Positions 41,792 to 44,700 of a stretch of 64,000 nucleotides of DNA are shown here, one piece after another. The position numbers and the translations under genes were made by a program. Location: the NCBI RefSeq assembly GCF_009914755.1, contig NC_060932.1; one strand, given 5' to 3'. The notes under the pieces were generated by a model. That model was not told where the DNA came from. It saw nothing but the letters and a program-made list of their open reading frames with translations, and searched no databases. Within the stretch, counting starts at the first letter, position 1. Each line of letters opens with the position of its first letter. This stretch comes from the human T2T-CHM13v2.0 reference genome, Homo sapiens.

Positions 41792-44700
41792 ATGACAGGA
41801 TCAAATTCACACATAACAATATTAACTTTAAATGTAAATGGACTAAATGCTCCAATTAAAAGACACAGACTGGCAAGTTGGATAAAGAGTCAAGACCCAT
41901 CAGTGTGCTGTATTCAGGAAACCCATCTCATGTGCAGAGACACACATAGGCTCAAAATAAAAGGATGGAGGAAGATCTACCAAGCAAATGGAAAACAAAA
42001 AAAGGCAGGGGTTGCAATCCTAGTCTCTGATAAAACAGACTTTAAACCAACAAAGATCAAAAGAGACAAAGAAGGCCATTACATAATGGTAAAGGGATCA
42101 ATTCAACAAGAGGAGCTAACTATCCTAAATATATATGCACCCAATACAGGAGCACCCAGATTCATAAAGCAAGTCCTGAGTGACCTACAAAGAGACTTAG
42201 ACTCCCACACATTAATAATGGGGGACTTTAACACCCCATTGTCAACATTAGACAGATCAACGAGACAGAAAGTCAACAAGGATACCCAGGAATTGAACTC
42301 ATCTCTGCACCAAGCGGACCTAATAGACATCTACAGAACTCTCCACCCCAAATCAACAGAATATACATTTTTTTCAGCACCACACCACACCTATTCCAAA
42401 ATTGACCACATACTTGGAAGTAAAGCTCTCCTCAGCAAATGTAAAAGAACAGAAATTATAACAAAGTATCTCTCAGACCACAGTGCAATCAAACTAGAAC
42501 TCAGGATTAAGAATCTCACTCAAAGCCGCTCAACTACATGGAAACTGAACAACCTGCTCCTGAATGACTACTGGGTACATAACGAAATGAAGGCAGAAAT
42601 AAAGATGTTCTTCGAAACCAACGAGAACAAAGACAGAACATACCAGAATCTCTGGGACGCATTCAAAGCAGTGTGTAGAGGGAAATTTATAGCACTAAAT
42701 GCCCACAAGAGAAAGCAGGAAAGATCCAAAATTGACACCCTAACATCACAATTAAAAGAACTAGAGAAGCAAGAGCAAACACATTCAAAAGCTAGCAGAA
42801 GGCAAGAAATAACTAAAATCAGAGCAGAACTGAAGGAACTAGAGACACAAAAAACCCTTCAAAAAATTAATGAATCCAGGAGCTGGTTTTTTGAAAGGAT
42901 CAACAAAATTGATAGACCGCTAGCAAGACTAATAAAGAAAAAAAGAGAGAAGAATCAAATAGACACAATAAAAAATGATAAAGGGGATATCACCACCGAT
43001 CCCACAGAAATACAAACTACCATCAGAGAATACTACAAACACCTCTACGCAAATAAACTAGAAAATCTAGAAGAAATGGATACATTCCTCGACACATACA
43101 CTCTCCCAAGACTAAACCAGGAAGAAGTTGAATCTCTGAATAGACCAATAACAGGAGCTGAAATTGTGGCAATAATCAATAGTTTACCAACCAAAAAGAG
43201 TCCAGGACCAGATGGATTCACAGCCGAATTCTACCAGAGGTACAAGGAGGAACTGGTACCATTCCTTCTGAAACTATTCCAATCAATGGAAAAAGAGGGA
43301 ATCCTCCCTAACTCATTTTATGAGGCCAGCATCATTCTGATACCAAAGCCAGGCAGAGACACAACCAAAAAAGAGAATTTTAGACCAATATCCTTGATGA
43401 ACATTGATGCAAAAATCCTCAATAAAATACTGGCAAACCGAATCCAGCAGCACATCAAAAAGCTTATCCACCATGATCAAGTGGGCTTCATCCCTGGGTT
43501 CAATATAAGGCTGGTTCAATATACGCAAATCAATAAATGTAATCCAGCATATAAACAGAGCCAAAGACAAAAACCACATGATTATTTCAATAGATGCAGA
43601 AAAAGCCTTTGACAAAATTCAACAACCCTTCATGCTAAAAACTCTCAATAAATTAGGTATTGATGGGACGTATTTCAAAATAATAAGAGCTATCTATGAC
43701 AAACCCACAGCCAATATCATACTGAATGGGCAAAAACTGGAAGCATTCCCTTTGAAAACTGGCACAAGACAGGGATGCCCTCTCTCACCACTCCTATTCA
43801 ACATAGTGTTGGAAGTTCTGGCCAGGGCAATCAGGCAGGAGAAGGAAATAAAGGGTATTCAATTAGGAAAAGAGGAAGTCAAATTGTCCCTGTTTGCAAA
43901 TAACATGATTGTATATTTAGAAAACCCCATCATCTCAGCCCAAAATCTCCTTAAGCTGATAAGCAACTTCGGCAAAGTCTCAGGGTACAAAATCAATGTA
44001 CAAAACTCACAAGCATTCTTATACACCAACAACAGACAAACAGAGAGCCAAATCATGAGTGAACTCCCATTCACAATTGCTTCAAAGAGAATAAAATACC
44101 TAGGAATCCAACTTACAAGGGATGTGAAGGACCTCTTCAAGGAGAACTACAAACCACTGCTCAAGGAAATAAAAGAGGATAGAAACAAATGGAAGAACAT
44201 TCCATGCTCATGGGGAGGAAGAATCAATATCGTGAAAATGGCCATACTGCCCAAGGTAATTTACAGATTCAATGCCATCCCCATCAAGCTACCAATGACT
44301 TTCTTCACAGAATTGGAAAAAACTACTTTAAAGTTCATATGGAACCAAAAAAGAGCCCGCATCGCCAAGTCAATCCTAAGCCAAAAGAACAAAGCTGGAG
44401 GCATCACACTACCTGACTTCAAACTATACTACAAGGCTACAGTAACCAAAACAGCATGGTACTGGTACCAAAACAGAGATATAGATCAATGGAACAGAAC
44501 AGAGCCCTCAGAAATAACGCCGCATACCTACAACTATCTGATCTTTGACAAACCTGAGAAAAACAAGCAATGGGGAAAGGATTCCCTATTTAATAAATGG
44601 TGCTGGGAAAACTGGCTAGCCATATGTAGAAAGCTGAAACTGGATCCCTTCCTTACACCTTATACAAAAATCAATTCAAGATGGATTAAAGATTTAAACG

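What the first reader, a model, noticed from the sequence alone, without database searches (positions are those of the whole stretch)
43856..43999. Gene conversion between inverted neighbouring L1s copied a dead RT active site (FADD to FANN) into the younger L1PA2
Seen: L1PA2 43856-43981 (+) is identical over 126 bp to the reverse complement of L1PA5 28602-28727, although the two elements differ frequently elsewhere. Both read [32 protein letters not shown]. Established: L1 ORF2 consensus is [32 protein letters not shown], and the DD pair is catalytic for RT. Shared non-consensus bases are gcaAatAac (two G>A), catcAtc, ttcGgc and gGtac just beyond the tract. The young copy also carries tatTtag, which I recall as the older-subfamily state. 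Inference: non-reciprocal ectopic conversion, donor L1PA5 and acceptor L1PA2 about 15 kb away, spreading an RT-killing mutation from a fossil into a younger element. Both D>N changes are GA>AA, compatible with (not proof of) APOBEC3 editing in the donor. The L1PA2 also has three frameshifts, so conversion may not have been the first inactivating hit.
Basis: partly seen in the sequence, partly recalled or inferred. Interest (0 to 1): 0.8.

Follow-up and report, generated by a model that had tools for sequence, protein, structure and literature searches.

The report
Old L1 overwrote young L1's RT site
A short patch of a young human L1 retrotransposon was copied from an older, inverted L1 about 15 kb away, replacing two catalytic residues of its reverse transcriptase; this is a clear but ordinary case of gene conversion between neighbouring repeats.

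Summary
A (young full-length L1, + strand, about 39806-45888) and B (older L1, - strand, about 26740-32800) are 91.4% identical overall. They are identical over 43856-43981 = 28727-28602, and both read [31 protein letters not shown].

The interpretation also holds: gene conversion, donor B, acceptor A.
- Eight of A's departures from 29 close relatives cluster at 43899-43985, and all eight match B. Elsewhere in the element 8 of 61 match B (Fisher p = 1.5e-6).
- Three of the eight are older-subfamily states.
- Four are rare changes: both D>N changes, 43971G and 43985G. Their combinations occur genome-wide only in these two copies.
- Flanking diagnostic sites 43844 and 44000 keep each element's own state. 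The tract is therefore 87-155 bp, with no crossover.

- 43901T and 43913A are two further donor states that were missed.
- 43932A is a recurrent CpG-decay state.
- B's mutation spectrum shows no APOBEC-type bias.

An adjacent 163-bp identical run (43675-43837) has no diagnostic site. It may be a reverse tract or chance.

Conversion between repeats is a known process, so interest is modest. Reads, pangenome haplotypes and ape orthologues could not be checked.

The parts
39806..45888 (+). Element A: young full-length L1, the acceptor. Its reading frames are open except for three frameshifts.
   Evidence: A stretch of 1401 bp is 98-99% identical to 39 other places in the genome. The 3.3-kb 3' half is 97.5-98.4% identical to 28 of 29 fetched relatives. 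The 5' half is 97.1-98.1% identical to 8 relatives. ORF pieces are given.
26740..32800 (-). Element B: older, heavily decayed L1, the donor. It lies head-to-head with A across a spacer of about 7 kb.
   Evidence: 91.4% identity to A over 5218 bp. The best other genomic matches to 1411 bp of B are 91-94% identical. It has many stops and frame breaks. The ends are approximate, taken from the alignment.
43899..43985 (+). Minimal converted tract in A (87 bp): eight sites where A departs from its own family and equals B.
   Evidence: One search shows 43899A, 43901T, 43902A, 43913A, 43917T, 43932A, 43971G and 43985G, all shared with B. Searches give the family states.
43845..43999 (+). Maximal converted tract in A (155 bp). 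It is bounded by diagnostic sites 43844 and 44000, where A keeps the young state and B the older state.
   Evidence: At 43844, A has G (young 27/28) and B has A (13/16 in the older sample). At 44000, A has A (young 27/28) and B has G (14/16).
28600..28684 (-). Donor stretch in B that matches the minimal tract. B has since acquired, or already had, a 2-bp gap opposite A 43982-43983.
   Evidence: Searches give the coordinate mapping 43899 = 28684 and 43985 = 28600.
43899..43904 (+). Codons AAT AAC in A (Asn-Asn), where 28 of 28 young relatives encode Asp-Asp of the FADD loop.
   Evidence: The catalytic role of D702 and D703 comes from passages of PMC10830420.
28679..28684 (-). The same Asn-Asn codons in B.
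43675..43837 (+). 163-bp run identical to B 28746-28908, directly upstream of the tract. Its status is unresolved: it could be pre-existing identity that seeded pairing, or a second tract in the A-to-B direction.
   Evidence: No diagnostic site lies inside it. None of 28 older copies has zero differences to A in this interval. The largest gap between B-private changes is 184 bp, with 0.09 gaps of 163 bp or more expected.
43499..43502 (+). Four extra bases in A's ORF2, absent from 29 of 29 young relatives (frameshift).
45062..45063 (+). Site in A's ORF2 where two bases are missing that at least 28 of 29 young relatives carry (frameshift).
40919..40920 (+). Site in A's ORF1 where two bases are missing that 8 of 8 young relatives carry (frameshift).

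Best explanation
After the young L1 (A) inserted about 7 kb from an older L1 lying in the opposite orientation (B), a DNA lesion in A's reverse-transcriptase region was repaired by homologous recombination, using B as template. The corresponding stretches lie 15.1 kb apart. The repair was a short non-crossover gene conversion of 87-155 bp. It copied into A three older-subfamily bases and four or five of B's private decay mutations. These include the two G>A changes that turn the catalytic Asp-Asp of the FADD loop into Asn-Asn.

Shown: the identity, the mosaic of family states, the genome-wide uniqueness of the shared rare changes, the direction, and the absence of a crossover.

Inferred: that the event was break repair in the germline, and that the adjacent 163-bp block of perfect identity helped pairing.

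The consequence is one more inactivating lesion in an element that also carries three frameshifts. Their order is unknown.
For: 1. 126 of 126 identical bases against 91.4% background identity.
2. All 8 of A's departures from 29 young relatives inside 43899-43985 equal B. In the rest of the 3' half, 3 of 26 do (Fisher p = 9e-6). Over the whole element, 8 of 61 do (p = 1.5e-6). Six rows at the poorly aligned 3' end (45834 and beyond) were dropped before counting.
3. A's own rate of private change, 0.8-1.0%, predicts 1.3-1.6 changes in 155 bp. Eight are seen (Poisson p = 6e-5 to 3e-4). B's private rate of 3-4% fits.
4. 43901T, 43913A and 43917T are older-lineage states. The 44-nt background that carries them with FADD is common (2679 matches within 3 mismatches).
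5. Rare changes. The 25-nt and 44-nt strings with both G>A changes occur in 2 places in the genome, both here. The single changes occur in 7 and 9 other copies on that background. With 43971G and 43985G together, the 50-nt string is found once, in A; B differs only by its 2-bp gap. The singles occur 38 and 42 times among 6233 matches.
6. A is young-type on both sides: 43844 and 44000, and 97-98% identity to young copies across both halves. There was therefore no crossover or inversion.
7. Known process. Passages of PMC8230782 describe conversion among neighbouring Alus within about 10 kb, and 12 cases where an old element converted a young one. Passages of PMC1920257 cite Tremblay et al. 2000 for repair of a break in a LINE by conversion from other LINEs, with tracts down to 13 bp.
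Against: No independent check of the assembly was possible, because no reads, no second human haplotype and no ape orthologue were on hand.

Inside the maximal tract, B differs from A at 43855 (a T private to B) and by a 2-bp gap at 43982-43983. Either these arose in B afterwards, or the tract is patchy.

43932A is a recurrent CpG state and adds little.

The samples of B's relatives bracket B's subfamily rather than match it. 43917T in particular is carried by only 4 of 16 copies in the younger of the two samples.

Genome pattern counts are stated by the tool to be lower bounds for large families.
Confidence: 0.9

Rival explanations
1. Assembly or polishing artefact: reads from B were used to correct A, or the reverse, which produced a false identical patch.
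For: No call supports it. It simply cannot be excluded from the sequence, because an artefact and a real conversion would look alike over the patch.
Against: The elements are only 91.4% identical and 15 kb apart, with unique flanks. The window comes from a telomere-to-telomere assembly built from long accurate reads (hub note; my own knowledge of that assembly). The patch is bounded by family-diagnostic sites. B carries two differences inside the maximal tract, 43855 and the 2-bp gap, which a fresh copy-over would not leave.
Confidence: 0.03
2. Conversion in the opposite direction over the Asn-Asn patch: A was the donor and B the acceptor.
For: In Alu, younger elements are the more frequent donors: 40 young-replaces-old cases against 12 of the reverse (PMC8230782 passages).
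Against: A would then have to have acquired 8 changes in 87 bp by itself, against 0.7-0.9 expected. Three of them would have to coincide by chance with the states of B's older lineage. The density of rare changes in the patch fits B's decay rate and not A's.
Confidence: 0.02
3. RNA-level chimera: A was born mosaic through template switching of the reverse transcriptase onto a transcript of B during A's own insertion.
For: No call supports it. Chimeric L1 insertions are known (recalled, not checked).
Against: It needs two switches within 155 bp. It needs B's transcript, of all L1 transcripts, as the second template. The product must then land 7 kb from B by chance. The rare changes exist nowhere else in the genome, so no other template is available.
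Confidence: 0.02
4. Independent parallel mutation, or a shared minor subfamily that carries these bases.
For: Each single rare change recurs elsewhere: 7 and 9 copies, and 38 and 42 copies. 43932A is recurrent.
Against: The combinations are found only in these two neighbouring copies. A and B belong to clearly different age classes. A lineage without the catalytic aspartates could not easily have propagated.
Confidence: 0.01

Closest known systems
Non-allelic (ectopic, interlocus) gene conversion between neighbouring Alu elements in primates (PMC8230782 and PMC6598467; passages read)
   Same: There is a mosaic of subfamily-diagnostic bases inside one copy, and the flanks are unchanged. The partners lie within about 10-15 kb. 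The tract is short. Old-into-young cases are on record (12 in PMC8230782).
   Different: Here the partners are L1s of about 6 kb, inverted, and only 91% identical. The donor could be named outright, because its private mutations came along. The patch hits the catalytic site of a coding element.
[quoted passage not shown]
   Same: It is the same proposed mechanism: break repair templated by another L1 copy, leaving a short tract.
   Different: That was an induced break in cultured cells with dispersed donors. This is a natural, presumably germline, event with a linked donor.
L1 gene conversion inferred in rodents and in young human L1s (Burton et al. 1991; Myers et al. 2002; seen only in a reference list, otherwise recalled)
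   Same: Mosaic L1 copies are explained by conversion.
   Different: I could not read these papers, so the comparison is by title and recall only.

Membership tests
Non-allelic gene conversion between dispersed repeats | A stretch of identity between two paralogous copies that far exceeds their background similarity | tested here: met
   126 of 126 identical bases against 91.4% overall identity. The longest runs away from the 43675-43981 region are 79, 60 and 53 bp.
Non-allelic gene conversion between dispersed repeats | Mosaic structure: the acceptor keeps its own lineage's states on both sides, so there was no crossover | tested here: met
   A has young states at 43604, 43653, 43674 and 43844, and again at 44000, 44030, 44165, 44214 and 44264. 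It has older states at 43901, 43913 and 43917. Both halves of A are 97-98% identical to young copies.
Non-allelic gene conversion between dispersed repeats | Rare, non-diagnostic mutations shared by the two copies and absent from other family members | tested here: met
   Genome-wide pattern counts: 2 places for the double G>A. The 43971G plus 43985G pair is found only here.
Non-allelic gene conversion between dispersed repeats | Direction shown by the pre-conversion state in an outgroup species or another haplotype | not testable with these tools
   No primate genomes, pangenome haplotypes or reads were available. Direction rests on diagnostic sites and mutation densities only.
Non-allelic gene conversion between dispersed repeats | Partners close together and tract length in the usual range | tested here: met
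   The corresponding stretches are 15.1 kb apart and the tract is 87-155 bp. The range for Alu is about 10 kb (PMC8230782 passage). Typical mammalian tract lengths are recalled, not checked.
   54 private substitutions were scored in 1.8 kb of B. Of these, 9 are G>A, with the next base C in 4, G in 2, T in 2 and A in 1. 43902 was filtered out of that count and would add one GA.
L1PA2 (A) and L1PA5 (B) subfamily labels | Match to the subfamily's diagnostic positions in a curated repeat library | not testable with these tools
   No Dfam or RepeatMasker library was on hand. A is young: 98-99% identity to its best relatives. B is older: 91-94%. B sits between my two samples of older copies.
Catalytically dead L1 reverse transcriptase | Loss of the aspartates of the FADD loop (D702, D703 of the D600/D702/D703 triad) | tested here: met
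   Both codons read Asn in A and in B. The triad is stated in PMC10830420 (passages). Loss of activity is inferred, not assayed.

The most novel reading that the evidence does not exclude
The locus may record a two-way exchange from a single recombination intermediate. Older-to-younger information would have moved over 43856-43985. Younger-to-older information would have moved over the adjoining 43675-43837, wiping B's decay mutations there. The two tracts would meet at an 18-bp stretch where each element keeps its own bases (43838, 43844, 43855). That would be a natural footprint of heteroduplex on both partners, as in double-Holliday-junction repair (a model recalled, not checked), between inverted L1s in the human germline.

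In support, B has no private change in 163 bp next to the proven tract. None of 28 older copies is that clean, and 0.09 such gaps are expected in 1.8 kb.

Against it, no diagnostic site lies in the interval. B's private changes are sparse over all of 43534-44344, with other gaps of 138 and 120 bp.
Probability: 0.3. Interest if true: 0.5.

Novelty: new member of a known kind. Interest (0 to 1): 0.35.

Why it matters
This is an unusually clean natural example of ectopic gene conversion between two L1 elements. Donor, acceptor, direction and limits can all be read from one genome, because the donor's private mutations travelled with the tract.

It shows that a decayed neighbouring copy can overwrite the catalytic site of a much younger element. 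Subfamily-based or divergence-based dating of single L1 copies can therefore be locally misled.

It does not change the understanding of L1 biology. The process is known, the acceptor also carries three frameshifts, and no effect on the host gene (an EYA1 intron) is indicated.

Tried and rejected
1. Site 43694 as proof of A-to-B conversion in the 163-bp run. B has the young state C there, where 15 of 16 copies in my first sample of relatives have T. However, the exact 51-nt B string with that C is very common: 2659 matches within 1 mismatch, and the first 100 listed are all exact. B simply belongs to an intermediate subfamily, so this argument was dropped.

2. The first set of 28 'old' copies (L003-L030) was chosen by the pattern itself. 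It is biased at 43899-43932 and mixes several subfamilies. It was used only where stated.

3. APOBEC context test on B: no enrichment.

4. Scan of A's 5' half for further tracts, using 8 young copies. Three shared sites at 40135, 40140 and 40149 are interleaved with unshared ones, in a 5'UTR region where A and B are about 80% identical. This was not taken as a tract.

6. The Tremblay 2000 paper is not held.

7. A phrase search for L1-L1 gene conversion found one paper, and only in its reference list.

I then fetched short stretches with the fetch from genomes.

9. Rows left out as poorly aligned: L066, L084, L091 and L092. L059, at 94.6% identity, was left out of the young set from then on.

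Full report
**What is there.** The window is an intronic stretch of EYA1 on human chromosome 8 (hub note). It holds two L1 elements lying head-to-head. A is full-length on the + strand at about 39806-45888. B is on the - strand at about 26740-32800. About 7 kb of other sequence lies between them. A and B align at 91.4% identity over 5218 bp, plus 83.5% over 568 bp of the 5' region.

**The observation.** Window 43856-43981 is identical, 126 of 126, to the reverse complement of 28602-28727. This is the second longest identical run in the pair.
- The longest run is 163 bp and lies directly upstream (43675-43837 = 28908-28746). It is separated from the 126-bp run by 18 bp holding three differences (43838, 43844, 43855).
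- The next longest runs are 79, 60 and 53 bp.
- Identity in 200-bp windows peaks at 96.5-98.5% over 43561-44060, against 87-95% elsewhere.
- In frame, A reads ...[33 protein letters not shown] reads the same up to ...GKV and then loses the frame through a 2-bp gap.

**Age classes.**
- A 1401-bp piece of A outside the patch is 98-99% identical to 39 other places in the genome (40 scored of 3267 candidates).
- The matching piece of B finds nothing better than 94%, and mostly 93% (40 scored of 14756).
- 28 of 29 fetched relatives of A are 97.5-98.4% identical to it over 3.3 kb, and one is 94.6%.
- Eight relatives checked for the 5' half are 97.1-98.1% identical.

A is therefore young and B is several-fold more decayed.

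**Where A departs from its own family.** I listed every column in which A's base is held by at most 20% of 29 young copies.
- Eight such sites lie within 87 bp: 43899A, 43901T, 43902A, 43913A, 43917T, 43932A, 43971G and 43985G. At all eight, B has the same base.
- In the rest of the 3' half there are 26 such events, and 3 are shared with B (44899, 45450, 45570). Six rows in the poorly aligned 3' end, from 45834 onward, were dropped.
- In the 5' half there are 35 events, and 5 are shared.
- Fisher's exact test gives p = 9e-6 for the 3' half and 1.5e-6 for the whole element.
- A's private rate outside the patch is 0.8-1.0%. That predicts 1.3-1.6 changes in 155 bp, against eight seen (p = 6e-5 to 3e-4).

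**Direction.** I took two samples of older copies. One was 16 top matches to B's flank (L061-L076). The other was 16 copies holding an exact 51-nt string of B (L077-L092). B sits between these two samples at diagnostic sites.
- 43901T is carried by 14/16 and 13/16 of the older copies, against 4/28 young copies.
- 43913A is carried by 16/16 and 15/16, against 2/28.
- 43917T is carried by 12/16 and 4/16, against 0/28.

These three are lineage states of the older element sitting inside the younger one. At the nearest diagnostic sites on either side, 43844 and 44000, A has the young state and B the older one. The tract in A is therefore at least 43899-43985 and at most 43845-43999, with no crossover.

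**The rare changes.** The other changes are rare everywhere.
- The 25-nt and 44-nt strings with both G>A changes occur twice in the 3.1-Gb assembly, both here.
- On the same 44-nt background, the single changes occur in 7 and 9 other copies, among 2679 matches within three mismatches.
- The 50-nt string with both 43971G and 43985G occurs once, in A; B differs only by its gap. The single changes occur 38 and 42 times among 6233 matches.
- The tool warns that its counts for large families are lower bounds.
- Four or five rare changes in 87-155 bp fit B's private rate: 54 scored substitutions, or 71 sites on a looser count, in 1.8 kb. They do not fit A's rate.

- 'tatTtag' (43917) is indeed an older-family state.
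- 'catcAtc' (43932A) sits in a CpG and recurs independently, in 5 of 28 young and 7 of 32 older copies, so it carries little weight.
- The G of 'gGtac' (43985) belongs to the tract even though B has a 2-bp gap just before it. Either the gap arose in B later, or repair was patchy.
- The APOBEC3 idea is not supported. Of B's 9 scored private G>A changes, the next base is C in 4, G in 2, T in 2 and A in 1. 43902 was filtered out of that count.

**Consequence.** The two changed codons encode D702 and D703. [quoted passage not shown] All 28 young relatives read FADD, 26 of 32 older copies do, and none reads FANN.

A also has three frameshifts. Two bases are missing in ORF1 at about 40919/40920. Four extra bases lie at 43499-43502. 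Two bases are missing at about 45062. Which lesion came first cannot be told. Loss of enzyme activity is inferred and was not assayed.

**The 163-bp run.** I first took B's C at 43694 as a sign of conversion in the other direction. That was wrong. The exact B string holding it is very common, so B's subfamily simply has C there. No diagnostic site is left in the interval.

What remains is that B has no private change for 163 bp right beside the proven tract.
- None of 28 older copies has zero differences to A in that interval. Their range is 1-29. The second sample is biased towards few differences, because it was chosen by a string that overlaps the interval.
- The gap between B-private sites there is 184 bp, and 0.09 gaps of 163 bp or more are expected in the 1.8 kb.
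- B's private changes are sparse across all of 43534-44344, however, and other gaps of 138 and 120 bp exist.

Two readings stay open. In the first, a block of pre-existing perfect identity helped the two elements pair; the need for uninterrupted homology is recalled knowledge. In the second, there is a second tract from A into B. I give the second reading about 0.3.

**Mechanism.** The pattern is that of short-tract, non-crossover, non-allelic gene conversion between linked repeats. It most simply arises from homologous repair of a break in A using B.

The process is documented for neighbouring Alu elements, within about 10 kb and falling with distance, and including 12 cases where an old element overwrote a young one (PMC8230782, passages; review PMC6598467, passages). 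For LINEs there is experimental break repair by conversion with tracts down to 13 bp. I saw that only as a sentence and a citation of Tremblay et al. 2000 in PMC1920257; the paper itself is not held. Older reports of L1 conversion (Burton 1991, Myers 2002) I saw only in a reference list. A phrase search for L1-L1 conversion found nothing else. Two broader searches and one on mosaic subfamily patterns gave reviews centred on Alu.

**Rivals.**
- An assembly or polishing chimera cannot be told from a true conversion by sequence alone. It is unlikely for 91%-identical copies with unique flanks in this assembly.
- The reverse direction over the Asn-Asn patch fails on mutation density and on the three older-lineage states.
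- An RNA-level chimera needs B's own transcript as template and a chance landing beside B.
- Parallel mutation fails on the genome-wide counts.

**Verdict.** It is a clear new instance of a known process. It is of modest interest, unless the two-way reading or a genome-wide pattern of decayed copies overwriting young L1s were shown.

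Noticed in passing
window 40135-40149: In A's 5'UTR, three sites where A departs from 7-8 of 8 young copies and equals B (40135G, 40140T, 40149G) are interleaved with three departures not shared with B (40126, 40143, 40148). 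This could be subfamily polymorphism, CpG recurrence or a patchy older exchange. A and B are only about 80% identical here.
   Followed up: partly
window 40145-40724: The RefSeq 'enhancer' feature in the hub's table lies wholly inside the 5'UTR of the young L1 (A), the region that holds the L1 internal promoter (recalled).
   Followed up: no
window 43534-44344 (B 28243-29049): B's private changes are about half as dense here (19 sites in 810 bp) as in the flanking 990 bp (52 sites), with gaps of 184, 138 and 120 bp. This could be uneven decay, or further undetectable homogenisation.
   Followed up: partly
window 28871-28921: B's 51-nt string combines an older state (opposite A 43674) with a younger state (opposite A 43694). 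It is very common genome-wide (2659 matches within one mismatch). B therefore belongs to an abundant intermediate subfamily, and top BLAST matches to a decayed copy can come from a neighbouring subfamily.
   Followed up: yes
L059 (G000:C21:30592676-30597077): One of the 29 best matches to A's 3' flank is only 94.6% identical to A over 3.3 kb, while it scored 98% over the 1.4-kb query. It is a copy that is mosaic or much more decayed upstream.
   Followed up: no
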